Source: Phoronis australis (lineage: Eukaryota > Animalia > Phoronida). From it: 64,000 bases of DNA. Numbering within the stretch: position 1 is the first letter of the stretch; every line of letters begins with the position of its first letter. The position numbers and the translations under genes are program-made. The DNA lies in contig NMRA01000015.1 in the NCBI GenBank assembly GCA_002633005.1, positions 423,793 through 487,792 of the forward strand, read 5' to 3'. The notes beneath the pieces were generated by a model. That model saw only the letters and a list, made by a program, of their open reading frames with translations. It had not been told where the DNA came from and searched no databases. This document shows, one piece after another, positions 20,856-62,577 of this stretch.

Positions 20856-21074
20856 TTAACAAGACAGCTTGTTGAGCTTGGTCTCAACTAAACAACCTCA
20901 ACGAGCTGTCTGTTCTTTCCAACCCATAAGGAACAAGCTTAGATCAAAGTCACATAGCCTACAGGCAACTACAAGTGCATTTTTTTTAGTTTTTGACAGG
21001 AGGCGGCTTTGCAGATTTAAACCTTAGGGCTGGACTGCTGAAACAGAACGCTTAAAGCGCACCTTGGTATAACA

Positions 21075-21351
21075 CATACTTGCCAAATGTCCCGCTTTTG
21101 GCTGGATCGTCCCGATTTTTGAACCTTCATCCCGCGCCCGGCCACATCATTCAAATGTCCCGTTTTTTGACCCACGCGGTGAAATTGTATATTTTTGTGT
21201 TTTTACACAAGATTTACTCCCATTTTCTTGTGTCATTTCACAGAAATGACTGAACAAAACAGGGAAAAACACCGTCTAAGCGTTTTAGGGTGTTGCGGCA
21301 TACATTTGAGTCTGGCGTTCCCGATTTCACTTTCGAATGTTGGCAACTATG
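21075..21351. mobile_element. MITE with CATA(C/G)TTGCCAA terminal inverted repeats (hAT-like)
   Basis: Ends are CATACTTGCCAA...TTGGCAACTATG, with repeated subterminal TCCCG motifs. Confidence 0.7.
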
Positions 21352-26294: not shown

Positions 26295-26515
26295 CCATGG
26301 AGTTTCTCATGTTATTTGTTGTTGTCTGATTCTTTATACAATTTTTTTCTCGGTTGCATCACAATATTCGTCCTTCCAGAGCCAACGTGGGCTGTGGGGT
26401 GCAACCCCGACTTGACGGAAAAAGTTCAAACTAGACAAATACCCGAGGATGCGTGATCTGGAATTCTTTGCCTTCCCGCGGACATCAATGAGAGACACGA
26501 AAATGTGCTTTATTT
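26295..26515 (+). pseudogene. Decayed THAP fragment, copy 2
   Basis: Nucleotide blocks are shared with 3990-4215 (TTTTCTCGGT.GCAT, GCTGT.GG.TGCAAC, AAACTAG.CAAATACC, ACATCAATGAGA). Translates AVGCN..KLDKYPRMRDLEFFAFP across a frameshift. Confidence 0.6.
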
Positions 26516-29500: not shown

Positions 29501-29893
29501 ACTGTTCACAACACATTAATTTCTGCCATTGAACCTTCACGGAGGGCATTTTCGCTTCGTGTTCGCCGACAATGTCGGCTTATCGTCTACTAGTGACTGT
29601 TATCTTTGAGCGTTGGTATAAACATTGCACGCCAAGGTAAATTCATACAGATTGGCTTCAGACAAGTGAACCGGCAAGACCCGTGAGAAGCACAGAGAAT
29701 CTTTGTTTTGATTCACTGTGTTTTGTGATAGTGTTTGGATGGAGCAACCTTTACGCTTTTGTGGTTTTCAATGTGATCGCAGTTAGTCAAACGTGGACTG
29801 TGTTTGTACAATCAAAGTGCCGAGAGTGGAGAACTGTTGCGGAAGGGTGCATTGTTTTGCTTCTATCGAGTGCCATTATAAAAATCGTACGCT

Positions 29894-29999
29894 ATGCCAA
29901 CGATGTCTTCACCTATCCGGAAACTTTCGACGGCAATGAACAGTAAACCACGTCCGATTCGCGTTCTCCTGCTCGGACAATCAGCTGTTGGAAAAACAG
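29894..29999 (+). CDS. Ras-family small GTPase, RERG/RASL11-like, coding exon 1
   Basis: MPTMSSPIRKLSTAMNSKPRPIRVLLLGQSAVGKT contains the G1 P-loop. Donor G|GTAAGG, phase 1. The start could be one of the downstream in-frame ATGs. Confidence 0.9.
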
Positions 30000-32900
30000 G
30001 TAAGGCGATTAGTTTTCTTTGTCCTCAATCATCCAGGTAAAGTGATGAAAATTCTGTCTCAGTTCATTTGCAGATTATATGCTCATCATTGCAGCCAATG
30101 CACAGAAGCCAGCGTTGCCGGTGGTTCGTTGTCGAGGTCATTGTCTTCACACAATTTCACACAAATTCGGCACCGGTTTAGCCGATCCGCTGGTTTAGAA
30201 GTTAGAACCCTTATCAGTCAAAGGAATTTTAAAAAATGACTTATCGGTTTTTTACTTCATGGTATTTACCTTCTAGACAAATTCCTACCCTGCTTTTAAT
30301 GAGCCAAGCTCGAGTGCTTACTTCTAGACAATATTTTCTGTTTTACCTCCTAGAAATTTGGCAAAAGCATCCGAAATCTACTCAACATGCTTATAGAAAA
30401 GTAATACACTTCAATTCTTTCGAACACAAGGTTGTGTGAAATATTACAAATTTGTATTTTTTATGTGGCACTCTTTTACCACCTAATGGAGCCTGAGTCA
30501 GGGCTGCACGTCTAAATTGAAACTGTCTCGAGATGTTAGTACTAAGTTTTCAGCGGACTTTCCACCAACCGAACCGCTGCTCATAATTTGATTTTAAGCT
30601 GTTATTTTATTAACACCTTAACAATGTACAGCAGTAGCAAAGAATTTTATTGCTGGGTGGGCAAATGAGGGGTTTTTGACATATTACGCAAGTTGTTTTG
30701 CATTGCACAAAACAGTACTGTGTATTCATTTTGAAAACCAACTAAGTCTGCTTTAACAGAAAACACCACCTAGAAACGTACAATATTGTACAATCGTCTG
30801 ACATCGAATTAAATATTCTTCTGTCAATTAGCATTTTGTTGACACAAATGAAGACTTACTGATTGACAAAGGCCTCAGAGTAATTCAGGCAGACCTGTCG
30901 TCTTATCGAACTAATCACGAACGAGTCACTTCATACAAAAGCATTTTAACTCGACTCGTCATTCGGATCTTAGCTCATTGTTCGGATTTAATGCCACTTC
31001 TGAGTATATTTAACGTCTACGAAACGTATTATAGGCTAACTTAACAACACGTTATCTTGGTTATGTTCTTGTTATGGGTTTGTGTGTTTACGAACCTGAA
31101 TTCTTGGTAAACTATTGTGTTCAGGTATTCGTATATAAAGCACTTCGGCAACGTATCGTGGGACTCAAAAAAAAAACGAGAGAACACCCATATTTCTGTG
31201 CAAGACCAGGGGAGTGGGCGGATATCCCAGAGGGGACAGCGTGCCCTATTTTCGGAAGACACAAAGTTCGTTTACTCTCGAGTTTTTATCGATTAGAAAC
31301 TTATGGGAATTTTATTGATTGCCTGGAATTTTCCGAAACTACATTTTCATAAACCTTAATGATGATATGCAATCTACATGTGACAACTAATCCAGACAAC
31401 ATCACCTCATACAAATATGACGAATGTTGTGACCACGTCATACTTTCGCTTGCATTCTTTGCATTGCACACATACTATTAAGCCCCTGTATAGAACAAGG
31501 TGTTTTCTGGCATACCACATATCGCACTTAATGGTCATAAATCATGCAGTCGAAATCTTCGGGGATTCAACAACCTAATAAAATCGAGGGTCATATAATG
31601 CAGCCTTAGTAATTAAATTATGTAAAGATTCGCGTGATAACATCGATTAAGGTCAAGAATAGGGCATCTCACATTTCCCAAAATCAAGTGACCGGTTCTT
31701 TTGTCTAATTCATTTTTCAAAATGCAACATTACGATAAAGCAACTTTATTCACAGACGTATGTTCTCTTTCAACGCAACGCAATCAGTTTTTGGTTGAAA
31801 TGGAAATTGGTTACGATAAAACGCCTGGAATATTCCCCCAACAGCCATATTGCATCCAAGAGCCACATTGCTTCAACGGATGAAATTAACACGCCGTGTT
31901 AAGCTACTGGTTGTTTTTCTCAGACCCAGAAATCCTTTCTAGTCTGACCAAGGAATACCACTGACGTGGCTCATTTCTAGTCTGACTAAGAAACATCACG
32001 TGGCCCATTTCATAACAGTGGTCTAAAATCACTGTAGTTTTTGACAGACAGTCGGGTTTATCATTGTATATAACGCGTAGCATGTATTTTGATATATAAG
32101 AGAAATCTCAATGGTGAGCTTTTTATAACTGTAATGATGAACTCCGTGTCTCTTCTTTGCCTATCCACTTGTTGTAGCCATACACCTTGCCATTGGCCAC
32201 GTCACTCACATTTCTCGACATTTCCTCGGGGGAATTTTCGAGAGATAGGATCTAAGAGCAAAATTCTTGCTTTTAAGCGTTGAAAATCATCATTTTCTCA
32301 GCTGCGGGAACTGTCACTCAAGTGTTTAGTTTAACGGGGTTGTGTGAAGGAAGCACTCAGAACAATTTCAAACTAATTTTTCGCATCACTACTTCGACGA
32401 CCAAACTAAATAGGTAGTGAGAGGCTCTGTTCAACAAGGCTATTATTTACTACGTGTTGGTTTCAGTTTTCATTATTTGAAGGCAGTTCCGTGTAAAATC
32501 ATTTCATGCGCATAGACTTATTGATCAAATTTAAAACTGTGAACATGAAATGACGACAAAATACTCGAACTAGCTGTACGCCAAACATTGTAGGCCGATC
32601 CGATGAAGAGTTCTCGCTAAAGGTGCTACACAATCGTACGCACGAACATCAAATTATCCGCACGACCCACTGAATTACCCGCATGATTTTTTGCTCGCCA
32701 AAATGCGTATATTACACTGTGCCCTTGCGCACGGAAAGATGATCAAGATATTGACTTCGATGTACGAGCTTTATTCTTTAGTTTGCGTATAACGGCTGTT
32801 GCTTCGTATGCACTAGGCAGCGTTGCAAGCGGTTTCCCTAAATAAATACACGAACTGAAATGAAATTGAAGAAATGTCACGCTAAATTCGTTATCTTTTA

Positions 32901-34585: not shown

Positions 34586-36682
34586 AAGAATTGGCACAAT
34601 CACCTTCTGCCGTCTGATTTCTTGGAAAGTATTTCACTTGTAGTTTCCCAAAAAATTTGGAATATTTTTAATTTTTGTGTCACCAGTGACCTAATATGAC
34701 CTTGCCGAGGAAATTTCCGTTACATGTATGAAAATGGCAACCAGGACCTCTGATCCCGGGGAAATTCTCACCCGAACCAAACGAGTGACAGCTGGTTACT
34801 GAGATCCAAAGTTTTATGAGATGTAGTTACCCAGTCTGAACACAAAACATCTATGCAAACATTGTAATATAGTGTAACTTTTCATTCAGTGTACGTAACC
34901 TGTTAATCGGGTATCATATATACCTTTGACACGAGTTATTTATTAACAACAGAAGTAGTACATGTAGCAATAGGATCATTTATTTCGGTAAAACATAAAT
35001 ATGACGCTAGATCAAATAATTTTATATTAATGATGTTGATGTCACACTTCTGCCAGCCAGTTTGAAGCCGTTAACTGGTTGGGTTCAGAGGTCAACTGGC
35101 TGCTGTCACTTGCGCAAAGCTTGAAAGCTCAAAATGACATGAATTTAGCTGAACATCGACAGCAGTGTCGAGTTCAATAACTGTTTCGCGACGAGAAAAA
35201 CATAGCCAAAAAAAACGCGCTCTCATTGAAAATACACAACGATGTCTCGCGGAATCTCACGAGACCTCGCTTTTCTAGTGGCGCTGAACGCTGTCCAGGT
35301 TTCCACCAAAGACGCTAACGGTCTCTGTTTCCACCCTCCCTGGTCCACAGTGTGGTCGCATGGCACCTATGACTCGTGCTGCCATCTGGTGGTGTTAGGG
35401 AATACTTGGTGGGTAGCAAGGGCAACCAGGGGGGCAAAAGGGGGGGGGGGGGGTTGGCGAGGTACTTACAAGGTCGGGGGCATATACGACTCAGATGGTT
35501 GATTGATTTTTTACGGCTAGATTGCCCTTGAAAGCTAAAGATACCAGTTTTCCAGGTAGATTCTCAATGAAAGAGTCCACTTTCACAATGGATGTCGTAA
35601 GCTATTGTTTAACTTGCGAGATCTATGCAACAGGCGTAAGCGCGTCGCATGGTTATCATCTACGGGGTACTACCATTGTTTTCCTTTGTTGAGTCTTTGT
35701 TGGATATAACAATGCAGGTAGCACGGATATCGTAGCTTGCATGGGCGTACATCAGCCGGTTACCGATAAATGCTTTCCATCATCTTTATTGTAAGAAAGA
35801 AAAACAAAGTGAACAATGGATTACGCCTATCTACCGGTCTCTATGCGACGAGCTTGCGACCTAGTTTCCCGTGGGTTTACAAAAGGTCTCATGTTGTGTT
35901 AAAATAATATAGTTGGATGTTGATTCATTAAATAGCATTTTATAGCGTTTGAGATCCCTATAAAGGACGTTATGAGAAAAAAATACGAAATAACAAATTT
36001 TCACAGAAGTTCATAATAAATTGTGCCAAGTCCCCAAAAGGGTGGGGGGTTACCTTACTGACTCTATAAAAGGGCGACTATCGTAATTTCTCAACGGTAC
36101 ATCCCTTCAAAATAGTTGAAGGGCCCCTACATGGAGAAAACCACGTCCGATTTCATGAAAATATATGTTTATTAGACATTTTGCAAAAACGTGAAGTTCG
36201 TTACTTTCAGCAGGACAGAAGCTTTCGGTCTCCAACGTTGCCTCGTGAACATCTCCATGTTGGTGCGTAACTCCCCCCCCCCGTAAAATCCCTTAGATAA
36301 AGGCTGCCTTTATGTTTTCCATATCCGTTTATAGTGCACTTTTCGTCCATACCCCCTGCCGCCTAGCTTGTCAGGCATGCAAGAAACGTTTCACGCTTTT
36401 CCCCAATGGTTTTTAATTTCTCATTGCTTGCAATGCGAATAGTTAAATCTCTAGCGACCTAATCACAGTTGACGTTGTGTGTGTAATCTCTTATCTGAAT
36501 TATATATTCTATAAAAATTAGCCAAGATATCGTGGGCGATAAGAAATTCGACCACCTCGTCGTCCCAAACTAAATGTTGACACGGGAAAAAATGCAGGAA
36601 ATGGGTTTTCCATACACTTTTAACGAAAGCAGTTTTAATTGCTTGTGTTAAAAGTGTATGGAAAAAAACATGTTGAAAAGTC

Positions 36683-36903
36683 CATGTATGCTGCAGTCAC
36701 ACATAGAGTTCATGTATGCTGCAGTCGTACACAGAGTTCATGTATGCTGCAGTCGTACATAGAGCCCATGTATGCTGCAGTCGTACATAGAGTTCATGTA
36801 TGCTGCAGTCGTACATAGAGTTCATGTATGCTGCAGTCGTACATAGAGTTCATGTATGCTGCAGTCGTACATAGAGTTCATGTATGCTGCAGTCGTACAT
36901 AGT
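36683..36903. repeat. Minisatellite, 28-bp unit, about 8 copies
   Basis: Unit CATGTATGCTGCAGTCGTACATAGAGTT. The array ends near the n at 36915, so the copy number may be collapsed. Confidence 0.95.
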
Positions 36904-38422
36904 TGCGTGAGGATNGGGGGGGGGGGGTCAGGGCAATTCAGTGCCCCCCTCCTTAGATTCGGGTAAAACAAACAAATATTCGGAGGATCCGTGAGAAAAA
37001 CCAGGAAAAACGAGAAATTGTGGTGGCTACAGGGGGACAGGGGGAGGGGTTGGTGGCGGCCGGGGAATGGGTACAATATGTGGTGAAATTGGTGGCAACA
37101 GCGGGCCGCGAGGAGTGCAATTCTCCTACGCCAATATTCGGGCAAATGCTTTTCATTTGCCTACCCAGACAGCCGAGCACAGATACGCCCACGATCCTGG
37201 CACCATCCCGTATCGGAAGGTTGCTAGATTTATGACTGGGTTAAATTATTGGCTGAGATTTTCTGAATGCACGTGGACGAAACATTGCTGAGTGATATGC
37301 AGTGGAGCCTCAGGATGAGAATAAACTTCAGGTGATAAATATAGAATGAGGTAACAATATTGATTTATGCCTTGATTTTACCACAATAGTAAGCAGATTG
37401 TAAATTTGGTCTGTGTGGTATTTAGAAAGTAGATATTAGAACAAGTTCATTGTTATAAGTTCAGTCTACTGTCTACATAAGATGGTGAGAAGAGTTTAGT
37501 CGTGGCACGTGAAACGGCATATTGCCGTGCGTGAACGCTTTTTGTCATATCCCGATGAAACGTGTATTTTCGTGAACCGTGGCGATTGTGGGGAAAGGGG
37601 GATTGGCAGCAATGGGCGGAGGTGAGACGACGGGGGAGGGGATTCTCCCCTGCCTTCATTGGCGGACAAAGCTATGGCATATGCCCCCTTCCGTGAACAG
37701 GCAAGTCCAGATACTCTTATGGTTTGGACGTCACTATACGTTCAAGATTCATTTAGTGTTCTGAGGGCATCTTTGTTTTATTTCACAAATTCGTTCACGA
37801 CTTGTGGTTCGTGACAGATCAGCATTTCAGACAATGTACCGACTTAGCTTTATGAAAGAAATTAATAAATGCTATCTCATGTTCAATCTGGATTGTAGGA
37901 TTTCTAAGGATTATCGTGTTTCGCCGATGTATCTTATTCACAGTTTGCGATAATCTTTGGCCTCGCTGTTTACCTTGTTGGATTTAATAAGCAAATATAA
38001 ATATTTCATTAGCAAAATTTCAGTCATCACTCCAAGCCGTGTTGGCCACGTGGCCTAACATCAAATTTAATAATGAATCAGACTTAAAAAACGCTACAAC
38101 GTCTTTCATCCAAACATTTTCCTGATAATAACGAATTTTGAGAATTCCGTAACTAACACTCGTGTTACAGTACGTGTGTAGGGCACTTGAATAATGTATG
38201 TTCCCGTCTCAGATGAAGCTCTAAGGTGCAGCCGCAGACGACAGATCCAAATTTTGGGTTACATAAACAACAAATGGTTTATTATTATTTTAAATGGCTA
38301 AATTTTAACGTTATTGGAGTTGCTTCACTAATTTATTATTTTCGTTTTTCTAAATGCGTGTCATTGAGTTCTATCTTTACTACAGAGATGTTCCATACTA
38401 ACTTTCATATTCTCTATTCCAG

Positions 38423-38479
38423 CGTTAACTGTTCGGTTCATTACGAAAAGATTTATTGGCGAATATGACCCAACATTAG
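38423..38479 (+). CDS. RERG/RASL11-like GTPase, coding exon 2
   Basis: Acceptor TTCCAG|. Encodes (A)LTVRFITKRFIGEYDPTL(E), the switch I/G2 region. Donor G|GTGAGT. Phases 1-1 match the neighbouring exons. Confidence 0.93.
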
Positions 38480-40694
38480 GTGAGTACAGCTCTCAATGAA
38501 TCATTCTTTATAATGTCTCCAAGATTACTCCAGATCAAGCCATTGATTAATTTTAGATTTACCCGCGGAAAACAATTCCGCGTTTCACTGCAACGAACAA
38601 AATCGACACTTTTTTGTAACTTTACCCATACTTGATAGTATACGTAACGTATGTGGACTGACACTTCGCAACCAGCTGTGTTCTCATGTCTCACATCAAA
38701 ATGAAGCTATTTCAAAACAATATTTCAGCAATGGCTGGAAAAACGGAACTGAATATACAGAACGAATGGTTACTTGTCAAATGGTCGTCTGAAAGGTTTT
38801 CATAACATGCGTGAAAAATGAGTGAATTGTTATTTTGCAAAATTTTTGTCTTAAAATTGTTAACGTTAACACACCGTAACTTGTGGAAATACGTTAATTT
38901 CCCACTTTATTTGCTGCGGCTACGAACACGCGTTCCGTCAACAACACAAAGTTTTGATTTAGACTTATCGCTGTAAAACTGATCGTCACTCCTTGCTAAC
39001 TCTTTTGAGAGGTGCTTCTAGACAGTTAGCTATCGTTCGAAACCGTTCTCGGCGCAATGACCGTAGCAAGCCAACTTGTTAGCCTGGATTTAAGCAATGG
39101 TGACATACTGCCATCTCTTTCCGAGCTCACAAATTCGTCTAATTTGATTGAGGGAGAATTTAAGACGGAAGCAATCTAAATCAGAAGTTAGTGTTGTGAC
39201 GGAAAGCTGGTTTGTAGCCGCTCTAAAATATCGCATATTAAAACGCCGAAGAAATTATGAATTGCAGATAGAAGATTATGCATGTAGGGTGCTGCTCGAG
39301 TATATTAATTGAATTGATAAAGATGAAACGATAATTTCCATAATAGACTTATCAAGACCTATGTTTAAGCATATTTCCAATAAATCGTCGCTGACTGGTG
39401 ACTAAGAAATGTATGCTTCAGTCGAATTTCAATTAGCAAGTACACTTTAATGAACAGAGAGTGAATTTCATAGCTATTCTTCTAGGTCCAACATGTGTCT
39501 CCCTGTCCTTTATTAATTATGTAATAAACTTGTTGGACCTAGGCGGTAATTTAAAGTTCAACTTTTCTCTGAGTTAATCTCCAACATTGCATCTACTCTA
39601 TCTCAAGTGAAGAGATTATGTCGTAGATTCCTAAGTGCGCATAATTTGTCCAACAGATACTGACAAGCCTTATAAAAATGTGTGATTTATTTTAAAAAAA
39701 TCTTTATTAAATTTTTGAAACGCTTGGCAACCACTTGCTTGTCGTACTATATATGTGTCATTCGTAAAATGTTTTGCTGATGAAAATACAGCAAGGGACG
39801 TCTAATTTTGCAAGAGACACAATTACATGTAAAAAAACCCGATGATTTTGTTGGTAACGGAAATAGACTTTAGTCGTACGCTTTTTTCAGTTCTGAAATC
39901 TAATTTGAGCAAAAGTGTAAAGTCTCCGAGATATACACATAATAGCTAAATGATGACATAATTTCAAAAACGATTTCTAGGCTATGAAACGCTTGCAATT
40001 ACTTGGACAAACTTGTATTCAGCAACTTTGAATTGGGAGCGTAATACCAAATATTTGTCTTCATGAAACATACCTTAACAGGTGAGACATTATTCTCAGA
40101 TAGTTTATGTACGAAGACTCATTGACAATGTTGGTATCGGTCACTAACCCGCGAAGATGATTCTCAATAGATGAATAAATATATTACAAATGTAACATAA
40201 GCATTAAATTGTCGACAACCAGCTGTGCACTATTGGTAACCTCTGACGTAGAATGATACATTTGGTGTAGTAATCGCCGGCGTGTGTACATGATCGATGG
40301 TTCTAATGAATCCAAATCGCCACATCTACTCACGATTTATTGTTGCTTTTTTCTGAAATAGATCGAATTATGCTCGCAGAAACTGGTCCAATCTTTTGAT
40401 AGTTATCAGGGTTTGTATATTTAGGTAGATATGTCCGCATAACTGTCATCCATAAATCAGCAGTAAAAAAGTATCGGACATACAAGTATTTAAACTATTA
40501 ATTTAACAGTAGCCTAATCACTAGCGCTCACTCTTCTGAACTGATAACGTCTAAATATATCCTTTACAAAATCTTCTATGGAAGTTTATGGCAAATACTA
40601 TAGATTTTATCAAACTTAATTGGTTTACGATCTGAACCTAGTATCACTAACATTTGTTTCAGGTTTGATATCGGGACGGTGTCGACGGGACGGC

Positions 40695-40797
40695 AATAGT
40701 CACCTGCAGCGTACCGCATTTTGAGAACCAGTTTGGTGCCTGTTATTCAGTGGAGAAAACTGGTTCTTAAAATGAGGGACGCCTGTAAGTGACAATT
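40695..40797. repeat. Imperfect hairpin / small MITE remnant
   Basis: GTCAC.TGCAG..CATTTTGAGAACCAGTTT pairs with AAACTGGTTCTTAAAATG..CTGTAAGTGAC around a loop of about 22 nt. Confidence 0.7.
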
Positions 40798-41253
40798 ACC
40801 TAAGGGGCTGTTGTATTTCTTCTTTCTAAGCTCTTACCCAGAGATAGCAAGTCGACACTTTTTCTAGGTATAATGCAGGGTCTTTTTTACCGCTCGGGTG
40901 GCCCAGAAATAGTGGCGTGACACTTTTCCCCATCTCTGAGTCAATTAAATCGAGGCTTATTTCTTGATGAAAATTGTTACCTCGCCTAGATCAAGTCTAC
41001 GAATATCATTCCTTTTTGATAGCTTTTAATTGTCCTCACACTCCTCACACCGAGTTTCTCAGCTAATACCTTCACGATTTCGATCAGATAAAGCAGATAT
41101 AACTATCCTTGCCCAAGAAATAGGAGATCACCACTTTTCGTAAAACATGGTCGCTTTCTATCTTTGGATCAGAGAATACGAAGTAGTGACGTCTAGAAAA
41201 AAAAAGAAAAAAGAAAGAAAAAAATGAAAAAAATGAAAGAACAAAAGAAAGGA

Positions 41254-42191
41254 ATAAATACACAAAACGTACCGAGAGTGGCGTACATGAAGTAATATCC
41301 CAGGAGACATTATTCCGCGTATCGACCGAGACCGAACGTCGAGGTCAATACGCCGAATAAGGTCGAGTGGGATATTACTTCATGTACGCCACTCTCGGTG
41401 CGTTTTGTATTTATCCCATGCGCTTCGAATCCCTAAGTTTCTTACATTTTTTCGGCAGATTTTTCAAATACTTCACCCAGACTGTTCACATGGTGGATCA
41501 CATCCTATATGTATGTACTTGCGCGTTAGGTTAAGTTTTCTCTTGTAAAAGAAACAATTTTAAAAGTAACGTTTTATTTCTTGAAAAGAGGTAGCAAAGA
41601 TGAAAACAACGTCAACTGTGCAGTGAACTTGTAACATCTCCTGGAAATAGTTAAAAAACAACATTTGATATTTTAGTTTCCTAGGAATCGGCGCCTGAGT
41701 TGCAGACGATATGGTATTCAGCAACTGAAAACTGCGACATAAGTGTCTTATAATTAACAGTTATGTTCCAGATTTTACGTTTAGGACCTGGTTGCATGGC
41801 GAGTGTTAGTTACACTGTTGCAAATGTATTACTTTATACTATATTCGGAAAGTTTGATGACCGAACCGGGCAACAAAGCGCCTCATAGAGCGAGGATGGC
41901 AATACAGAGATGCAGTAAAAACTCGTACCAGGGGAAAAGATCGAAGATTCTGTAACCAGCACGAACTTGGTTGCATCTCCAAATTTACATACATTGCGTG
42001 CAATACTGGAAGTAAGAGGGCCAGAGACTATCCCGGTGCCTACCCTCTGACGTCACCACAGAAACAGAACCGGTTGAAGACCTCGACCTTTTGAACTTTC
42101 CATGTCAGAGGTCGCTGTTGAAGTAGTGAATACGGAAAACTTTATTACATGGCCGTATTTCCCTCGACAGATTCAACGCGTATGGGATAAA
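41254..42191. mobile_element. Palindrome-bearing interspersed repeat, copy 2 (apparently full length)
   Basis: A hairpin of about 160 bp at 41254-41414 is followed by TTATCCCATGCGCTTCGAATC...GATTCAACGCGTATGGGATAA. Homologous to 8316-8989. Confidence 0.85.
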
Positions 42192-43007
42192 AAGAAAAAA
42201 AAAAACGAAGGAGAAAAAAAGAAAAATCTGTCTCTGACTGACCGGGTGAGCCAGAGACATCATTCTTCACGTTACCTGAGCAACACAGCTTCTCCACTCA
42301 TCTTGACGAACGTAGTTCCTTTACGGATCACAGGCCCGATAAACTGGCTCACAAATACCGCGCACCGATCACCAAATAGGATTCACCCGCAACCGCCAAA
42401 CAGGAGTCGCCGGCAACCGCCAAACACGATGCCGGAATTTCTCAAAAATTTTTGTATGGATTCACGAACATACCTCAATAACTCCATGTCCGTGTACCGC
42501 GTATTGTGAAACTCGAAAGTAAGCAGGGGTGCGCTCCGTAGACGCAAGAAACCAGCTAGTGTTTCACGAGTATGCTCTGTAACGTATTAGTGTATACCGG
42601 CAAATCGCTGTCTCTGAAGTGATTAGCCGGTGAGGTTGAAATGTTGAATTATTGGATAGAATTCACTGGTTCCGTTCCATGAGCGAATAACTCTCGCCGC
42701 AAGTGTCTGCCCTAGCGCATCTGTTGGACTGCGCCGGAGAGCACCTCTGCTTATTGACCAACGTAAAACAAAATGAAGCATTCTTTACATACAAATGACA
42801 GCACAATTCTGGTTGTATGTATGAATATGTCCAGGTGATTGCTCAGAGAGCTCGATATGTTTTCTCCACCAGCGGACTGTATCCAACAGGCAACGCCGCA
42901 AGCATATGTCAACGCGTGTCTGGGCTATGCACTTTCCCTTAGTGCACAAAGCACTTGAACGGTTGAATATGACGTCACGGATTAATTTACTTCATTCATA
43001 ATTTCAG

Positions 43008-43081: not shown

Positions 43082-45276
43082 GTAAAAGAAATGTTTTGTT
43101 AAAAAGTTAAGCAACGAAAAAACCCAATTATTTCTATACCAGTGCCAACACACTTTACTTATCGCCATCATCGAACTAGTGTACCCAGCAGGGGCGGGTT
43201 TTGGAACAACTGAACCAGCCAAGAAAGACTCCCTTGTGGAAAAAATAATTTTGATTTAGACCTCGTGACGTTATTAATATGATATCAATTTATTTGTATT
43301 ATTTCGTGGTTTAGGAAGAACCCCCGGGTGGTATTTGCATAGGTATGTAAGGTAACGGTTCAGAAAAGTTTTTTTCTCATGTCCCTACAAAGAGTACTAA
43401 CTTTTCGGACAAACTCTCCAACAAAAGGGTTCACTTTGGGTGTTCAAAAACCCTACAAGGGGTTCACTTTGGGTGTTCAAAAACCCTACAAAGGGACAAA
43501 GGGTTCCTTTTCCTTCTAGATAAATTTTTAAAATTAGTTTTACTCTGCAACATAGCTCGTGGCGTACCCCGGGCAAAATAGATTACGATAAATATTATCC
43601 CTATTTTTAAAACTTAAGTTTCAAATTTTAGATGTACTGCTGTTGGACAACATGGCAAATGTTCATGTCCTATTTTACATTTAACTGTTTTACAAGCTTA
43701 CAGAAGAGTTTGCATGTGGAATTAGTCAATATAAGGGTAGTACTTTGGGAGCAAAATACTACAAAAGTCGCTTTTTCATGCAAGTTTCCCACAAATTGGT
43801 TCTTTTTTCGAGTCCACTCCCTAAGTGGGCGAGTATCTTAATTTTCCAGCAGCACCCCGTCAAAAATGTAACTCGCTATCCCGGAGAAGAACAGAAAATT
43901 TGTTACCTCTTGACAGAAGGCTAATAAGTTGGCTGGTTATTTTATCCAACGATCATGATGTCAAAAATAACCAACTCAATCAATTCTACGATATCTGAGC
44001 AAGAAACAATTTGAGACCTATTTTGCAGCAGCAAATGGTCTAAGTACAGAGTTATTTTGGGTGATTGATGTCTGAGGGTGATCACCAGTCAGTCGCTTTG
44101 AAAGCAAGTCGTCTTGTCCTCCTATCGAATTCATTTAGATCACAAACAGTTTTACCAGTTGACGGAGTGCGCATCATTTAACAGTGCTTATAAAGCTAAA
44201 CACCAAACGCTTTGCTGACGAACTTTTGAAATTTCACTCTATGAATAACGTAGACTGTATTTTATTCGTATTTAACTGGAAAACATCGATAAGAATTAGC
44301 GATTTGTTATCAAACCCCCAAAACACGACGGTTTTATAGCTCTGGTCAAAACTAATAACTTCAAAAGTCTATCCTATCCATCAATAATAATAACTTCGAA
44401 AGTCTCATCCGACAATAACCACACAAAAATGATAATGTACTTTTAAGAAAATAGGAGAAATCTACATTTTTACTCTGCCTTGGAAACTTTCATCTACCTT
44501 ATTTCTACAACTCACCGATATAAATCGAATACTAATCGGACTCATAAAGAGGCAATTGGTGGATACAGATTTTCACTTAAAACTCATCCAAGTACCATTA
44601 AACGACTGCACTAATAGGCGTCCCCGTAAAATCCAACCTCAGAAAACATCGTTTATTTGCAATAAGCAACAACTTGACAACCAGATCAAAGGTTACACCT
44701 GTTGGGGTCCCTTCGGCATTCATACCTCCCAGGTTTTGGATTCCAGGAGTCGCGACTTTTATGAATGTCATCGTTCAACTGTCGCGGGAAATCCTCAAGC
44801 AAATATGCAAGTGCTACCTAAATTAATCGTTAGTGTGATAAGGTGTATTTAAGTAAAGATAAAAACATAAAACTTCACTGACAGATTTATGACCAGAGAG
44901 TTCCTTCAATCTGGCCTACATGAAATGAACACCTGAGAATTTGTTACCTGAGAGAAATCATCACTCAACTGGTCACCGCTGGCTTACACCTGTTTCCGAT
45001 GGAAATAAAATTTCATAGGCCGTCAGCTGGTTTAGTATAAATGCTTGGGCTAATTTCCTGTGTCTTATAATTATTCACTATTTTATGCAGACTAGATCTC
45101 TCTTACAACTTGGTTTAAGAATTACATATGTGAGTGTATCAAAATCTCCGAAAATACAACTTATCTGGGAACGTAATATTGCACAGATGTATCAAAATTA
45201 CTGCCGAAACGCTGCGATTTTAAAATGCGGTCGACGTTGGTGGAGTTTACGTTTCTTGTACGTTTCTTTTTTGCAG

Positions 45277-45864
45277 GATGAAGATCAAATGCGATGGGAG
45301 GAGAATATAAAATGGGCCGACTCTTTTATTCTGCTCTACTCCATCACGGACAGTCTCAGTTTTGACGAATGCACGAGATATAAATTTCTGATAAACCATA
45401 TCAAAAGAAAGAGAAAGATCAGCGTCGGGGCGCTGGCGCAGTCACATGATATTCCCGTTGCTCTAGTCGGAAACCAAACAGATCTCAAATACGACAGAAT
45501 GGTATCAACGGAAGACGGACAAAGGCGAAGCGATGAACTCGGATGCACGCACTTTTTTGAAATATCAGTTCGAGAATCCTACCAGGACGTATTCAAAATA
45601 TTTGAGCATATTTACAGAGACGTCAAAGTTAAAAAACACACCACCCACCATCGAATGAACCCGCCGTCACCCCCGGAGAACCGAGCGCGTGCGTTTACTG
45701 TTGTGTCTGAGGGTGGCGTCGGCAGTAGCGACTTTGCAACATATCGCCCACTTAGACGATCGACTACAACATCATCGACGAAAAGTCGAGGAAACAAAAT
45801 GCCAGCAGTATTCTCATCAAGACGTGAATTAAAACGGTCGAACAGTTTCGCGACTTTCACTTGA
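45277..45864 (+). CDS. RERG/RASL11-like GTPase, last coding exon
   Basis: Acceptor TTTTTTGCAG|. Encodes DEDQMRWEENIKWADSFILLYSITD...LVGNQTDL...FFEISVRE...RSNSFATFT*. The four exons total 825 nt (274 aa). No CAAX box, as in the RERG/RASL11 subfamily. Confidence 0.95.
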   Translation, partial: DEDQMRWEENIKWADSFILLYSITDSLSFDECTRYKFLINHIKRKRKISVGALAQSHDIPVALVGNQTDLKYDRMVSTEDGQRRSDELGCTHFFEISVRESYQDVFKIFEHIYRDVKVKKHTTHHRMNPPSPPENRARAFTVVSEGGVGSSDFATYRPLRRSTTTSSTKSRGNKMPAVFSSRRELKRSNSFATFT

Positions 45865-54770: not shown

Positions 54771-55002
54771 TTTTGGAAATAGTTTTACCATCCAGGATAG
54801 GGGTTCTCACAATTCCTGCAGTGGGTGATCGTGGATCAGTCACTACATCGGGTGTCTGTTGTAAATGTATCGGTGTGCGAGTAATTCCCGAACTTGGGGA
54901 ACGAGGGTCAAAATCAGCGACCCGGTTCCCAACAGGAGTCGCCGGGGGTGTCTCAACTTCTTCTAAAAGGTCTGTGAAAGACTTCGAGGTGAAACTTCCC
55001 AT
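54771..55002 (-). CDS. CDCA3: CDCA3 first coding exon
   Basis: MGSFTSK...DPRSPSSGITRTPI...DPRSPTAGIVRTPI contains the doubled DPRSP..GI.RTP motif typical of CDCA3. Donor A|GTATGT. An acceptor 14 nt upstream of the ATG (exon starts 55016) implies a non-coding first exon. Confidence 0.9.
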
Positions 55003-55545: not shown

Positions 55546-57214
55546 AGTCTGATTCTTGAAACTTCCACTCCTTATGGCCAGCAGCACACTGTCCAAAAGC
55601 ACATGGCTCACAAATAACATGAATATGCCACCACAGTAATCAGTATGGCTCGAGTAGAATCAATTAAGGATAACTCAACGCAATCTGTAATCTGGTGATT
55701 GACTCGTACTTTATGCACACTGGCACTTGATTTTGACATTCAATAGTTCGCCTAATGATTCTGTTCTTAACATGGTGACTGAGTTTATACTTGATGACAA
55801 AAAACAGCTCCAATAACAGAAATTGGAATTTGCAGAAAATCTTAGTTACGATCCGTAAATATCTCCTGGTACAATCGAAAAGCTAGTTACCTATGTAGTA
55901 GCTGCAAGGTCTAAATGAACCAAAAATGTACTGAAATACTGGGTGTTAACTAACGAAGAAAAACTCCGCTGATCACAAATTTGGTAGTATATGAGGAATT
56001 ATCAACAAGTTCCAGACAAATGTCTTATTCACGCCTTCTTGTCAACATAACCTTTGTCGTGAATTCAATGTCGTGATTTCAAAAGACGTCAAAAGTTAAC
56101 CTAATAACCTAATAATTGTATGTCATTCTAAAATTAGACAGCGTACCACTGTTTCATTAACTGACCCCAGTGGATGGTGGCCCTCCATATGAAGACATAT
56201 CCACTGGTGTTTGCAGTGTAAAAATGGCCAGTTGCCGATTTGGGCAACTGAACAAAGGAGGGTTTGAAAAAAAGTTTGATTACAGGAATATTTGTTCGAG
56301 CTGAGACATCAGCGGCTTCTTTCTCTTCTTCCAAATACAACAAGCCGTCGAAGTACTGATCCTTACATGTTGATGTGTGTTATTGATAAATTTGAACTGT
56401 CCATAACTGTGAAAATAACAACAAAATGAAGTGCAGGTTAGTGCCATTATAAAATACAAGTTTTATTATTTACTGAGTAAGATTGACGTTTAAGATGTGA
56501 CTCGTGAATGGCATGTTGTAGGTAGGCAACACGTAGCCCTCCGTTGGCCATTTAGTGGCTACAATACTTCCCATTGCATTCTGTATTAATTTTGTCTCGT
56601 GTATTTTAAATGGGTGGTGGGTGAAATCCGCTCACCCATTAAGAGCTTTCACATCGTCAAAAATACATTCTACACCTAAAACTATCACTTAAAAAAGCAC
56701 ATAACTTCTTCAATGGTCCTTTCTACTTCTACACATATTGTCGATGAAGCATAGCTACGAGAATTAAGGTGACTTTGGCAAAGAATTCCAACTCCACTTT
56801 TTGGTCACCGTTAACTTTTTCAACACGCGTGCAATAACCACAAAGTATTTCAACTGAGTCACGTGAGTTAGGCAAAGGCTAGCGCAAGACTAAGCGAAGC
56901 ACATGAAGCTGGCACGTGACAATTGCAAAATAGCACGGGAAGATATTTGTAAGATTTCTGTCCGTTGGACTTTTTATTCATCAACATGTGTGATTTCACG
57001 CAACTTCCTCAAAATGGCACCTGGTTAGAGAAACTCGAGCAAACCGTGACAGGTTTGTTCAAGTTATGTTGATTAAATTGTATCCAGAGTCATGGTATCT
57101 GTTAATTATAACTCCGTGAGCCTATATGCATGTTTCATTCCATTTTATTTGCTGTATTTTGAAATAAGTAACTTTTTATGGAGATGTACTATCGTTCCTG
57201 TATGCCTGCGGCAT

Positions 57215-58796: not shown

Positions 58797-59145
58797 CTGT
58801 AAGACAATTTTCAAGGAGATATAAAAATTGCCTGCAAAATGCACTTTTGTTTTCAACAGTTAAAGTTCCCGCTTTAGCCAATCAAAGTTGCGCTAACATG
58901 TCAAATACTTCATAGCGTTATAAAAACTATTTCAATTGGTTCAATTCTGTAGCTACAAAACCAAAATTTACTTTTGTATTTCATCGTTTAGAGTGTATAT
59001 ATTTGAAAAAAAATGCTAATAAAATCCAATATTTTCCGTAGAAAATAATTATTTTTGCTTTTTATGTTACAGGTACAAAAGTATTACACAAATGTTATAA
59101 ATAATCATGAACTTACTGCACTGATCTAAAAGACAAGATGGCGGC
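58797..59145. promoter_or_regulatory. Bidirectional CDCA3/USP5 promoter and candidate non-coding CDCA3 exon 1
   Basis: Minus-strand donor CAG|GTAATT at 58797/58796. E2F-like TTCCCGC at 58866-58872. CCAAT boxes at 58878, 58935 (reverse) and 59026. YY1 consensus CAAGATGGCGGC overlaps the USP5 ATG. Confidence 0.6.
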
Positions 59146-59236
59146 CTCCTTGGAACAGTACTTGTCTAAAATTCGCATTCCTTCAGGCGGAAACAAGATT
59201 TTCAAGGATGAGTGCATGTTTTCATTTGACACTCCT
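59138..59236 (+). CDS. USP5: Ubiquitin carboxyl-terminal hydrolase 5 (isopeptidase T; USP5/USP13 family), exon 1
   Basis: MAASLEQYLSKIRIPSGGNKIFKDECMFSFDTP matches the IRVP...KDEC.FSFDTP N-terminus of USP5. Donor CCT|GTAAGT, phase 0. Confidence 0.93.
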
Positions 59237-59648
59237 GTAAGTATGGATCGGAAGTACACTTCAGATCAATTTGAATTAAATAAATGTCACGTTGCTCCCT
59301 AATCCTGCTAGTGTTATGGTCAAGACACTTGTCTTGAGTCGACAAGAGGCGAAGTGCACAGTCACTGTCCGAGTACTTAGGCAGTCACAAACCCAGTGCC
59401 ACTCACGTTTTTTAGCTTTGTTGATGGTTTTCTCGAGCAATAGTTTTCAAAGAAATTTTGAATGTTGTATCTTGTTAGATGTTTAAAAAATACTATATAA
59501 TCATCATCTGGCTCTGCTAAGACGCCAAGTTACATGTCAGGACGTTTCCTAGTTGCCATTCAACAGACAGGATAGACAGTGACCACCCTCTCTAGCTGGA
59601 ATGTAGTGACCACCCTCTCTAAGTGGCCAATAGAGATGGTGAAGCTCC

Positions 59649-60234
59649 TGTTGTAAAATGTGCTTCCGGTGAATCATAAATGAGCCTCTGTTAGCCACTC
59701 GTTAATGGGCAATTGCCTATTAGCTGAATGGTTAGCATGCTCGCCTGTTAAATCGGGGTCACTGATTCGATTCCCGAGGTCGGGCAAACTCGGCTATTAC
59801 GACAATTGGCGTAGTCGGCAAAAGAATGATATACCGATGAAGCACTTCTCGGACCTGAGACAGCACGCTTGATAGTGAGCCTATTACCAGGAGTCGAGGA
59901 CCTTAATGCGAGACAATCTTGGGGTTCATTTGTCGGACGGCTATTCTGGGAGGTAAAAATCCAGAGTAAAATCTTGTGACGTAGTCCAGGAGTAAAATCA
60001 TGTGGTGAACACAGGAGTGGAGTCCTGTTTTCACCTGCCAGGTGGCGCGCTTGTTCATAGGAAAATGGGGAATGTTGTGAAACGTGCTTCCAGTGAATCA
60101 TATATAAGCCTCTAGCTCTGTTAGCCACTCGCTAACGGGCAGTTGCCTATTAGCTGAATGGTTTGCACGCTCGCCAGTTAAATCGGGGTCACTGGTTCAA
60201 TTCCCGAGGTCAGGCAAACTTGGCTATTACGACA
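59649..60234 (+). mobile_element. Miniature non-autonomous LTR retrotransposon (TRIM) with a tRNA-like sequence in both LTRs
   Basis: LTRs at 59649-59804 and 60073-60234 (TGT...ACA, about 90% identical). PBS TGGCGTAGTCGGCA at 59807-59820. PPT AGGAAAATGGGGAA at 60059-60072. 4-bp TSD CTCC. Confidence 0.92.
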
Positions 60235-60640
60235 CTCCTATAGGAGGAAACTTTTCGGCAAATTATATTAATACCTCACACTGATCAATTCATCAAAGTC
60301 ACGTTGTTCTAAATACCTTTTGATACCTTAGGCTGTTACAAACCAATGCTGTTCAAAAGTGCTGGCGGTGGTTGTCAAAGAAATTTGAAAAAATGTAGAA
60401 TGTGCGACCTTTACAATAGTTTAACAACAAATTTGGATTATAAAATGATCATCTATTCTGTTCACATTTCCTGCACAAGAATTAGCAACCCAAAATTTAA
60501 AAAAATTTTGGATAAAAAAATTTTCGGTTCTGCCAGGTTAAGATCTCGAGGGTCAGTCTCGTTTCTACATCAACCAATGGCATTCAAGTACAAACTAGAT
60601 CATAGGGTTAACTGTTGACATCTTTTCACAAATCAGGACA

Positions 60641-61189
60641 TCAACTTATGGCAGTAGCACAATGCTGGGACTGGATGAAGTATGGGCTGAAGTGCTTCAA
60701 GCCCACGGCAATTGCCAAAGCTTCAACCTCACAGGGAAGCCAAAGTACTTGGCGGGACTTAAGCTTGGCACTGAAAAAGGAAGCAATCTCGGGTTTTCCT
60801 TCCCTCGTAACATATAAGGTGGCTGCTATCCCTGGGTGCTTGGCAGAGGCGTCTGTCACAATCCATAGTTTATCCTCATGATGATGGAGTGTGATGTGCT
60901 TGTTAGACGATAGTGCCCTCTGGGTGGCAGAAAATACACTGACTAACTCATCAGACCATGTCAATGGATCCTTGGAATCGCGGTCTGAAGTAGCATCATC
61001 TAGTGGAAACATGTAGGCGGAGCAATGAGGGATTACCCTAGACAGAACCTTGAAGGCACCTATGAATGAACGCATCTGACGCACGGTTATAGGCTTGCTG
61101 TGCGAAGCAAGTGTAGCGATACGATGACTGCTAGCCTGAAGGGTGCCACGTTCCCATATCCAACCTAGGATAGTCGTGTGCTTGGGGGA
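60641..61189 (-). mobile_element. Ty3/Gypsy pol fragment (end of RT plus RNase H) in USP5 intron 1
   Basis: TTILGWIW...PITVRQMRSFIG...LTWSDE...LWIVTDAS...FFSAKL...CEVEALAIAVGLKHF contains the RNase H TDAS and E.EALA motifs of Gypsy elements. Confidence 0.88.
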
Positions 61190-61228
61190 ATAAGTACTTA
61201 TTTACAGACAGATCACTGTCTAACCATA

Positions 61229-61485
61229 GGAGGCCTTCGATGTTTTTACTTCCTTCCAACTTGAACAAATCCTCCCGTTATCAAACTTTTTCTTCGAGCA
61301 GTCCTTTGTTCAGTTCCCAAACGGAAACTGGCCATTTTACCCAGTGCATGGCAGGGGATATGATGTCATACCACCTGCCGTGTGTTTCTGATTTTGAGAA
61401 CTGAACAAAGGACTGCTCGAAGAAAAAGTTTGATAATGGGAGGATTTGTTCAAGTTGGAAGGAATTAAAGACATCGGCAGCCTCC
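61229..61485. mobile_element. Fold-back MITE with about 95-bp inverted arms, TA-flanked
   Basis: TA|GGAGGC...TCCTTCCAACTTGAACAAATCCTCCC pairs with GGGAGGATTTGTTCAAGTTGGAAGGA...GCCTCC|TA. Confidence 0.85.
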
Positions 61486-62451
61486 TAAAGTATCCCTCTA
61501 TGCGCAAAAGGTCCTGATAACCATGTGACTTTGGTTTTTTAATTGGTGTGAGGCATAATTCGCCGAAAAGCTTGCGGCGTATGAAGCACCTATAGGAGCT
61601 TCACTGTATGTAGTTCAACTACAAATGGTGGTTGCTGTCCACAGACGGAAGTGAGCTGACATTCTTACAGTCTATTGATCAGCAGTAAAACAACATGGCT
61701 CTACCATGACCTTTTCTGCAAATGAATGTTGCTCATTCTACAATTGGATGTACACTCAGTGTTCTCGCACTTGGCATTCAATTTCAAGGGGATATGACCA
61801 GTTGTTGCTAAGTCTAATTTAAAGCAATAAACTCATTGTTAATAATTGTGATGCCCTTTTCCAAACTGGTCACCATTTTTTTTCAAACAGGTCGCGGGCC
61901 ATTCAAGCATGTCGCAAGTGCTGGCAAACAGGCCGCAGTGACACCTTAAAAGAGGTTGTGAAGAACACTGATTTGTATTGATCAATGACTGTTGATTTAG
62001 TTATGAAAAGTACTTCCTTTTGTGCCATGTGTTTCAGATAACGTCTGTCTGAACCACTCAGCAGAGGGTTGGTTGCTTCATTCACTAAAGAAAGCATTAG
62101 CATGGCCGCTCTTTTTGAATGTAGACTTCTGGGATATCCAGATGTCCTGTGAGACAACATTGTAAACGGCTTCGCTTGATTTTGTTAGTGAGTGAAAGAA
62201 ATAGTGATTGCCTGAACTTTGTTTTGAGTCGTAAGGAAAGACATTGATATCCAAAGGTGTTTTATTGCCAGAAAGATACATCATGATGCTTAATTTACTG
62301 AAAAGATCTGAGGTTCTAAGCTTCATTAGATATGTATCTATTGGTTGTGCTCTAGCTTTGATGATGAATCTATCTGACAATGGCAAGGACGTACAGTTAT
62401 TAATAATGTGTTATTGAGTTGAATGAACTCTGAATGTGCTCTTTTTTGCAG

Positions 62452-62577
62452 GAGTGTGAAACAGGTCTGTACGTATGCATGAATACATTCATGGGATTTG
62501 GAAAGGACTTTGTTGAAAAACATTATCGCAAAACAGGAAGTGGGGTTTTTCTTCACTTGCGAAGAATCAAAAAAGCA
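62452..62577 (+). CDS. USP5: USP5 exon 2
   Basis: Acceptor TTTTTTGCAG|. Encodes [42 protein letters not shown] (GLY.CMNTF.GFG of the N-terminal cryptic ZnF-UBP). Donor GCA|GTGAGT, 126 nt. Confidence 0.95.

What the first reader, a model, noticed from the sequence alone, without database searches (positions are those of the whole stretch)
59649..60234. Miniature LTR retroelement whose LTRs each contain a tRNA-like Pol III promoter
Seen: a 586-bp non-coding element with every LTR-retrotransposon cis signal (TGT..ACA LTRs of 156 and 162 bp, PBS, PPT, 4-bp TSD CTCC). Each LTR holds a tRNA-like unit of about 72 nt (59715-59786 and 60145-60216) with A box TAGCTGAATGG, B box G(G/A)TTC(G/A)ATTCC, complementary ends TGCC..GGCA, and a CTGTTAA loop resembling tRNA-Asn(GTT). 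Known: the PBS is complementary to the 3' end of eukaryotic tRNA-Ser (..UGCCGACUACGCCA). Plant Cassandra TRIMs carry 5S rRNA in their LTRs. As I recall, a tRNA-bearing TRIM group named Helenus, with 4-bp TSDs in animals, has been described. Inference: this is a SINE/LTR hybrid, transcribed by Pol III and mobilised by a Gypsy-type partner, and possibly a family not yet catalogued.
Basis: partly seen in the sequence, partly recalled or inferred. Interest (0 to 1): 0.8.

Follow-up and report, generated by a model that had tools for sequence, protein, structure and literature searches.

The report
Helenus mini-retrotransposon with conserved fold-back palindrome
This is a real 586-base, gene-less, repeated jumping element with a decayed tRNA-like sequence (likely its promoter) in both terminal repeats, a kind described in 2024 as Helenus, and just before that sequence it has a fold-back palindrome, also seen by eye in many published animal Helenus families, that would help join the ends of its RNA.

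Summary
The structure is confirmed: LTRs 59649-59804 and 60073-60234 (141 of 156 aligned bases identical), a 14-nt tRNA-Ser primer site, a purine tract and a 4-bp TSD. The opposite arm of the host repeat preserves the empty site and confirms the TSD. The LTR is highly repeated in the species' reads, and A box, B box and primer site are kept family-wide, so this is not a one-off SINE insertion. It fits the published definition of Helenus (Kojima 2024); only tRNA similarity by program stayed inconclusive. I saw no close match among that paper's animal consensuses, and its primer type is not listed there, so it is likely a new family. The tRNA-Asn label and a cloverleaf fold are not supported. 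Pol III transcription and the Gypsy partner remain inferred. The scan has noted this kind before on other DNA (45 notes, at least 14 genomes). One addition: a hairpin and a 10-nt palindrome precede the A box and fold back on it. By eye, 18 of 18 vertebrate and 33 of 51 bivalve Helenus LTRs carry such a palindrome, with differing sequences, and the paper's text does not mention it. Its role is untested.

The parts
59645..59648 (+). 5' copy of the 4-bp target site duplication (CTCC)
   Evidence: empty-site test
59649..59804 (+). 5' LTR, 156 bp, TGT..ACA
59688..59708 (+). short hairpin X (59688-95) : X' (59701-08) with a 5-nt loop; X is a 7-of-8 direct repeat of the bases running into the A box (59717-24)
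   Evidence: fold; family variants at 59702 and 59706 give Watson-Crick pairs and the loop base 59696 varies; alignment A1
59708..59717 (+). perfect 10-nt palindrome P, centre of a 24-nt self-complementary run (59701-59724) and of a ~50-nt fold-back over the A box
   Evidence: z -5.99; 0 of 300 shuffles fold as well
59714..59786 (+). degenerate tRNA-like unit; A box 59721-59731, B box 59764-59774; likely type-2 Pol III promoter
   Evidence: sequence, family conservation; no cloverleaf
59807..59820 (+). primer-binding site, 14 nt complementary to the 3' end (with CCA) of tRNA-Ser
   Evidence: identical to the first 14 nt of human tRNA-Ser antisense oligos in PMC13478228 and PMC3299991; no variant at 15% or more in either of 2 DNA runs
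59805..60072 (+). 268-bp non-coding internal region; its single T4 run (60028-31) is absent from the other copies laid
   Evidence: no Pfam hit for the overlapping frames; 60029 is G in all depth laid from 2 DNA runs; T runs
60059..60072 (+). polypurine tract, 13 of 14 purines, directly before the 3' LTR
   Evidence: PPT-LTR junctions of sister copies among the loose ends
60073..60234 (+). 3' LTR, 162 bp; hairpin 60118-60138, palindrome 60138-60147 (one G.U, particular to this copy), tRNA-like unit 60144-60216
   Evidence: 98% of family depth has A at 60142
60235..60238 (+). 3' copy of the 4-bp target site duplication
59573..61604 (.). host repeat (context): a high-copy element with inverted arms; the TRIM interrupts its left arm; ends approximate
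   Evidence: inverted arms; depth and loose ends
59237..62451 (+). host gene context: predicted intron 1 of a USP5-type ubiquitin hydrolase gene (coding exons 59138-59236 and 62452-62577), same strand as the element
   Evidence: Pfam zf-UBP_var on both exons, PDB USP5 hit, in-frame GT..AG read from the sequence; splicing not checked in reads

Best explanation
This is an old copy of a repeated, non-coding Helenus-type TRIM whose tRNA-derived A and B boxes likely drive RNA polymerase III transcription and which is likely copied by the proteins of an autonomous Gypsy element using tRNA-Ser as primer. Shown: paired LTRs, PBS, PPT, a 4-bp TSD, high repetition, and family-wide retention of the A box, B box, PBS and the upstream hairpin/palindrome. 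Inferred: Pol III would start about 12-14 nt before the A box (near 59707-59709; spacing recalled from Alu and tRNA genes), read through PBS, internal region, PPT and the 3' LTR, and stop at the first T run in the flank (60252-55 here). The repeated R region would then run from the palindrome to the LTR end. Gag/RT/integrase supplied in trans would package the RNA, prime on tRNA-Ser and integrate with a 4-bp duplication. The fold-back module would let the RNA's 5' end pair with the upstream part of the 3' LTR or with a second RNA; cyclisation or dimerisation is my best guess for its role (about 35%).
For: Anatomy. TSD: of junctions with 0 to 7 bases removed, only the one with 4 removed occurs in the opposite arm of the host repeat (1 of 8). 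Repetition: LTR bins show summed contig depth of 35,900-42,500 against 51-53 in the unique flank (run X2; the tool warns that this is not a copy number). Long contigs of single-copy depth align up to the exact LTR end 59804 or through the PBS (records 4, 8, 11, 13, 16), and sequence before the LTR start is heterogeneous (agreement 0.52-0.57 in four of the loose-end rows). Family-wide B box G at 59765 (93%), no PBS variant at 15% or more in DNA, PPT-LTR junctions in sister copies. Definition, 4-bp TSDs in animals and Gypsy-like PBSs are in PMC10886601. Module: folds; by-eye survey of the published consensuses; 4 of 4 fetched oyster-type Helenus loci have a 10-nt palindrome against 4 of 90 chance viral matches.
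Against: No program recognises the unit as a tRNA, so tRNA origin rests on the boxes and on alignment with published-type Helenus copies. RNA-seq shows no pile-up of starts or ends, and 91-93% of laid reads run on into unlike sequence, so they come from other copies, probably inside host transcripts. TSDs of other copies could not be read (no genome held). No partner was identified. For the module's role: the predicted gain from end pairing (-11.2 and -8.2 kcal/mol) is not beyond a control of 100 random window pieces (median -7.7, 5th percentile -11.5). The X':X'' helix shows no two-sided change in 6 sequences. Ten of the 33 bivalve cases have an unpaired central base, which suits a hairpin as well as a dimer.
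Confidence: 0.88

Rival explanations
1. An ordinary Pol II TRIM whose LTR picked up a SINE once; the tRNA-like segment is a passenger in this copy or a small subfamily.
For: The unit is degenerate and undetected by ARAGORN and Rfam. Depth over the hairpin/A-box core (88,000-265,000) far exceeds depth over the LTR start (14,000-32,000) and B box (8,000-14,000) in run X2, so the head may be shared with a SINE or with sister families.
Against: Diverged copies continue from the A box into B-box-bearing sequence and on to the LTR end (loose ends). The B box is canonical in 93% of depth. There is no A-rich or tandem tail and no internal TSD. The same layout occurs in published Helenus LTRs.
Confidence: 0.06
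2. The element is Helenus-type, but the fold-back module serves to keep the 3' tRNA-like unit from folding or being processed as a tRNA (RNase P, La), or is only the relic of an old inverted duplication of the tRNA 5' half, and has nothing to do with dimerisation or cyclisation. This rival concerns the module only.
For: The upstream arm matches the reverse complement of the unit's 5' half at 19 of 24 aligned positions in the 5' LTR and 17 of 24 in the 3' LTR. The local fold-back has probability 0.98-1.0 in an isolated 50-nt segment. The end-pairing gain is within the control range. Several families without the module keep a tRNA-like acceptor stem (Figure S1).
Against: A pure relic would not stay self-complementary with different sequences in bivalves, ribbon worms and fishes (by eye). 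In the full predicted transcript the ends pair for any start from 59701 to 59714.
Confidence: 0.4
3. The LTRs carry functional or near-functional tRNA-Asn genes that the element spreads.
For: The GTT triplet sits at the anticodon position in both LTRs.
Against: No cloverleaf. The base before GTT is G in 91% of family depth and the two bases after the loop vary. The acceptor ends are out of register.
Confidence: 0.02

Closest known systems
Animal Helenus TRIMs (TRIMp3; Kojima 2024, PMC10886601), especially bivalve Helenus-1_CVi, -2_CVi, -1_CGi, -2_MyGa, -2_MoPh, nemertean Helenus-1_LiLo, coelacanth LTR1_LCh/LTR2_Lch and zebrafish LTR-11_DR
   Same: Under 1 kb, non-coding, paired LTRs with a tRNA-like A/B-box unit, PBS for a tRNA 3' end, PPT, 4-bp TSD. 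By eye these families also have the hairpin plus palindrome before the A box.
   Different: No close match seen among the animal consensuses (all read by eye). Eight of 9 short window strings have 0 or no informative hits in the supplement, and the ninth occurs only in fungal families. The PBS is for the tRNA-Ser with the human AGA/UGA-type 3' end; the listed Ser-primed families use two other Ser ends. Helenus-2_MoPh has the same lengths (156/268) but a different sequence.
Cassandra (plant TRIM with 5S rRNA in its LTRs; PMC7215508 passages) and Ajax
   Same: TRIM with a Pol III promoter in each LTR. Cassandra is modelled as a 'super-hairpin' with the two LTRs complementary to each other.
   Different: No 5S sequence here (Rfam 0 hits); tRNA-type boxes; animal host; 4-bp TSD, whereas Ajax makes 5 bp.
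Ty1 PAL1/PAL2 dimerisation palindromes and CYC5/CYC3 cyclisation signals (PMC6844567 abstract; PMC4974528 passages)
   Same: Self-complementary sequence near the RNA 5' end and pairing of the RNA ends are needed for Ty1 mobility; this is the model for the module.
   Different: A functional analogy only, with no sequence relation tested. Ty1 is autonomous and Pol II-driven.
tRNA-derived SINEs (SINE2)
   Same: tRNA-type internal promoter, likely termination at a T run in the flank.
   Different: LTR-type ends, PBS, PPT and a fixed 4-bp TSD; no LINE-like tail.

Membership tests
Helenus (Kojima 2024) | TRIM shorter than 1000 bp, no protein coding | tested here: met
   586 bp; overlapping frames have no Pfam hit
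Helenus (Kojima 2024) | two LTRs with TG..CA ends | tested here: met
Helenus (Kojima 2024) | PBS complementary to a tRNA 3' end directly after the 5' LTR | tested here: met
   14-nt match to published tRNA-Ser antisense oligos; conserved in the family
Helenus (Kojima 2024) | PPT directly before the 3' LTR | tested here: met
Helenus (Kojima 2024) | A box (TRGCY..YGG) and B box (GGTTC) in the LTR | tested here: met
   both in the 3' LTR; 5' LTR has a private change in the B box; 93% of family depth is canonical
Helenus (Kojima 2024) | detectable similarity of the LTR segment to a tRNA or SINE2 (Censor, tRNAscan-SE) | tested here: inconclusive
   ARAGORN and Rfam negative; aligns with oyster-type Helenus copies, 1 of 4 of which ARAGORN calls a tRNA; Censor and tRNAscan-SE not available
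Helenus (Kojima 2024) | 4-bp TSD in animals | tested here: met
   this copy only, with the empty site preserved in the opposite arm; other copies not readable
Helenus (Kojima 2024) | interspersed multi-copy family | tested here: met
   depth hundreds of times the unique flank, heterogeneous flanks, independent long contigs
TRIMp3 | transcription by RNA polymerase III from the LTR promoter | not testable with these tools
   RNA-seq shows no start or end pile-up; the paper also has no validation for Helenus
Animal Helenus | an autonomous Gypsy element shares the PBS | not testable with these tools
   no genome held
Cassandra / Ajax | 5S rRNA-derived sequence in the LTR | tested here: not met
   Rfam 0 matches at E<=1
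Retrozyme | self-cleaving ribozyme in the LTR | tested here: not met
   Rfam 0 matches at E<=1 over 59000-61000; an undescribed fold cannot be excluded
SINE2 | tRNA head plus LINE-like tail, no LTR/PBS/PPT | tested here: not met
functional tRNA-Asn gene | cloverleaf with U33 and a paired anticodon stem | tested here: not met

The most novel reading that the evidence does not exclude
The hairpin-palindrome-A-box module is an undescribed, ancient cis-signal that defines one lineage of Pol III mini-retrotransposons across bivalves, ribbon worms (including Ajax), coelacanth, sturgeons, carp-like fishes and this host. That lineage is therefore one old or horizontally spread clade and not several independent SINE captures. 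The palindrome sits at the RNA's 5' end and dimerises or cyclises the RNA, letting a gene-less element hitch on Gypsy particles without LTR homology.
Probability: 0.3. Interest if true: 0.62.

Novelty: new member of a known kind. Interest (0 to 1): 0.38.

Why it matters
As an element it adds one more family, with a primer type not yet listed, to a class published in 2024; that alone is modest. The fold-back module matters more. The Helenus paper leaves open how such elements are recognised by partners whose LTRs they do not resemble, and it proposes repeated independent origins. A structure kept with changing sequence across phyla points to shared ancestry of a large animal subgroup and offers a short, mutable candidate signal for RNA dimerisation or end pairing. 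It can be tested at once on the public consensuses and on zebrafish LTR-11_DR (5575 LTRs in the paper's Table S3).

Tried and rejected
No whole genome is held, so copy-by-copy TSDs and the partner search were not possible. The run search returned 'no RNA holder listed', which is no evidence either way. Family-specific patterns gave 0 matches in metagenome and viral contigs. Host lineage: a RERG-like exon, a CDCA3 exon and a USP5 exon gave no close named relative (best named 55-56%, 58-60% and none), so I can only say 'invertebrate-like animal'; earlier AI notes say likely mollusc, unchecked. The length match to Helenus-2_MoPh is coincidence. The tRNA-Asn identity and cloverleaf were rejected. 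A ribozyme in the LTR, a lead from earlier notes on other genomes, had no Rfam support. End pairing looked striking in the whole-transcript fold but is not beyond the random control, so I do not count it as support. The pair count for X:X' (100% paired, 5 of 500 shuffles as high) is partly circular, because the search pattern imposed most of those columns in the 4 fetched loci. Of 14 metagenome matches, 4 are oyster-type Helenus copies, 3 are one identical unresolved sequence with a 10-nt palindrome and no B box, 1 is a tRNA-Lys gene and 6 look like chance. A paper search on CYC5/CYC3 terms returned 0. One search was translated in the wrong frame and not used.

Full report
Observation. It spans 59649-60234 (586 bp), with LTRs of 156 and 162 bp (TGT..ACA), a 268-bp internal part and CTCC on both sides. 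The LTRs agree at 141 of 156 aligned positions plus one 6-bp indel (K2P 0.105). Twelve of the 15 substitutions are transitions and 7 of 15 lie at CpG sites (my count), so this is an aged copy whose divergence is likely inflated by methylation. The PBS (59807-59820) is unique in the window (0.01 expected) and equals the first 14 nt of antisense oligos to human tRNA-Ser in PMC13478228 and PMC3299991 (passages). The purine tract 60059-60072 abuts the 3' LTR. There is no other copy in the window.

The TSD has an internal control. The element interrupts one arm of a larger repeat with inverted arms. The reverse complement of the other arm holds the uninterrupted site, and of junctions with 0 to 7 bases removed only the one with 4 removed is found there (1 of 8). 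The nest lies in predicted intron 1 (59237-62451) of a USP5-type gene on the same strand. The host is an animal; three protein searches gave no close named relative. Earlier AI notes on this genome say likely mollusc, which I could not confirm.

Family. No genome is held, so I laid public runs of the same species label on the region. In DNA run X2 the LTR bins reach summed depths of 35,900-42,500 against 51-53 in the unique flank; the middle of the internal region reaches about 570-610 at 85% likeness. The tool warns that these are not copy numbers; they do show strong repetition. On the 5' LTR plus PBS, depth over the PBS is 15,000-16,000. Long contigs of single-copy depth align up to the LTR's last base or through the PBS. 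Sequence before the LTR start is heterogeneous or a purine tract. Most copies differ from this one after 59846 but then resume similar sequence, so internal regions are diverged and not absent. The PBS shows no variant at 15% or more in either of 2 DNA runs, and the B box has the canonical G at 59765 in 93% of depth. A one-off SINE insertion is therefore unlikely. One point is unexplained: depth over the hairpin/A-box core (88,000-265,000) is far above that of the LTR start and B box, so sister families or a SINE may share this head.

The tRNA-like unit. It has an A box (59721-31) and a B box (59764-74), but ARAGORN finds nothing in the window, Rfam finds nothing at E<=1 in 59000-61000, and the 73-nt units fold no better than shuffles (z -0.73 and +0.18). 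The Asn-like loop belongs to this copy's 5' LTR: 59746 is G in 91% of family depth and 59750/59751 are T in 45%. It is a promoter-type remnant, not a tRNA gene. The only T4 run inside the element is absent from the other copies laid (60029 is G in all depth of 2 DNA runs), which fits Pol III read-through to a flanking T run (inference). RNA-seq runs gave 346 and 390 laid reads from 18-19% of each run; 91% ran on into unlike sequence, and no start or end pile-up was listed. Transcription of the element as a unit is not shown.

Comparison with Helenus. I read the whole main text of PMC10886601 and supplement parts 1 and 5-11 of 11. Parts 2-4, which lie within the fungal consensuses, were searched by string only, and the main-text figures are not visible. 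Helenus is defined as a TRIM under 1 kb with a tRNA-derived LTR segment, PBS and PPT; animal families make 4-bp TSDs and share PBSs with Gypsy elements; Pol III activity is not validated there. This element meets every feature I could test except similarity to a tRNA by program, which is inconclusive. I saw no close match among the animal consensuses, and no listed family has this PBS (0 hits; Figure S2). Repbase and Dfam were not available. The scan's own notes hold 45 findings with these words in at least 14 genomes, none matching this sequence.

An extra feature. Directly upstream of the A box lie a short hairpin (X 59688-95, X' 59701-08) and a perfect 10-nt palindrome (59708-17). X' and the palindrome can fold back on the A box, giving a 24-nt self-complementary run and a 50-nt hairpin (z -5.99 and -3.54 for the two LTRs; 0 and 1 of 300 shuffles fold as well). 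Family variants favour the pairing: C at 59702 (99%) and 59706 (91%), A at 60142 (98%), while the loop base 59696 varies. Watson-Crick palindromes of 10 nt or more occur at 338 of 63,999 centres in the window.

The same layout is visible by eye in the published consensuses, with different palindrome sequences. Counting a self-complementary run (G.U allowed) directly before the A box, I find it in 18 of 18 vertebrate LTRs, in 33 of 51 bivalve LTRs (21 even-centred of 10 nt or more, 2 of 8 nt, 10 with one unpaired central base), in 3 of 3 nemertean Helenus and in both Ajax LTRs (one with a mismatch). I find it in 0 of 3 brachiopod and 0 of 1 ctenophore LTRs, and saw none on a read-through of the wasp families. 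These counts are manual and have no computed control. As a partial test, a pattern that left the palindrome's interior free fetched 14 metagenome loci; the 4 that match oyster Helenus consensuses by eye all have a 10-nt palindrome, against 4 of 90 chance matches to a similar pattern in viral contigs. Those 4 loci come from only two families and I designed the pattern from them. In alignment A1 (6 sequences) X:X' is fully paired with two-sided changes at 2 of 8 pairs, partly by construction; X':X'' is 91% paired with no two-sided change.

Is the module in print? The Helenus paper's text has 0 occurrences of palindrom, hairpin, dimer or inverted. Searches for Helenus+tRNA+LTR, TRIMp3, Cassandra+TRIM+5S rRNA+palindrom and TRIM+miniature+LTR+tRNA-derived+mollusc (listings only) and passages of PMC13570524 showed no description. 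Two word searches of the scan's notes gave 0. Cassandra is modelled as a super-hairpin of complementary LTRs (PMC7215508 passages), a related idea.

Mechanism. The likely cycle is Pol III initiation near 59707-59709 (spacing recalled, not measured), read-through to a flanking T run, packaging and copying by a Gypsy partner with a tRNA-Ser primer, and integration with a 4-bp duplication. With such a start the palindrome is the RNA's first stretch and lies in the repeated region. The predicted transcript pairs its 5' end with the upstream part of the 3' LTR for any start from 59701 to 59714 (probability 0.98 for the A-box pairing; it falls to 0.4-0.5 at 59716). Ty1 needs 5' palindromes for dimerisation (PMC6844567, abstract) and end pairing for reverse transcription (PMC4974528, passages). 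Against this reading, the computed gain for pairing two strands is not beyond random window pieces, so only the conservation argues for function. Shielding the 3' tRNA-like unit from processing, or a conserved hairpin of other use, is about as likely.

Verdict. This is a genuine Helenus-type TRIM and likely a new family: a new member of a known kind. The fold-back palindrome is a testable lead on shared ancestry and RNA handling in animal Helenus. Interest 0.38.

Noticed in passing
window 59573-61604: High-copy repeat with inverted arms and an inner 95-nt inverted pair (61227-61321 / 61393-61487); depth up to 213,000 against 51 in run X2. MITE-like; superfamily not determined. Part of it recurs at 56221-56303.
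   Followed up: partly
window 60644-61201 (-): Fragment of a Ty3/Gypsy-type RT-RNase H region inside the host repeat (Pfam RT_RNaseH_2, PDB Ty3 RT). Whether it belongs to the TRIM's partner family is untested.
   Followed up: partly
window 59138-59236, 62452-62577: First two coding exons of a USP5-type gene; the TRIM nest is in the intron between them.
   Followed up: partly
window 54772-55002 (-): CDCA3-like first exon, divergent from the USP5-type gene.
   Followed up: partly
window 45184-45861 (+): RERG-like small GTPase exon.
   Followed up: partly
window 20412-20630 (-): Partial THAP domain (Pfam E 6.6e-05), possibly a transposon remnant.
   Followed up: no
PMC10886601 Data S1, Helenus-2_SyJa-LTR and Helenus-2_SyUm-LTR: By eye these wasp LTRs hold a hammerhead-ribozyme-like core (CTGATGA ... 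GAAA; motif recalled) downstream of the tRNA-like unit; the paper's text does not describe it for these families.
   Followed up: no
PMC10886601 Data S1, Ajax-1_LiLo-LTR and Ajax-1_NGe-LTR: By eye the Ajax LTRs have the same fold-back palindrome followed by a tRNA-type A-box-like motif before the 5S segment, which suggests descent from a Helenus-type LTR.
   Followed up: no
L002, L008, L011, match at 901-933: One identical sequence in three metagenome contigs with hairpin, 10-nt palindrome and A-box-like motif but no B box or tRNA call; unresolved.
   Followed up: partly
window 59684-59737: Read depth over the hairpin/palindrome/A-box core is several to about thirty times that over the rest of the LTR: sister families or a SINE may share this head.
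   Followed up: partly
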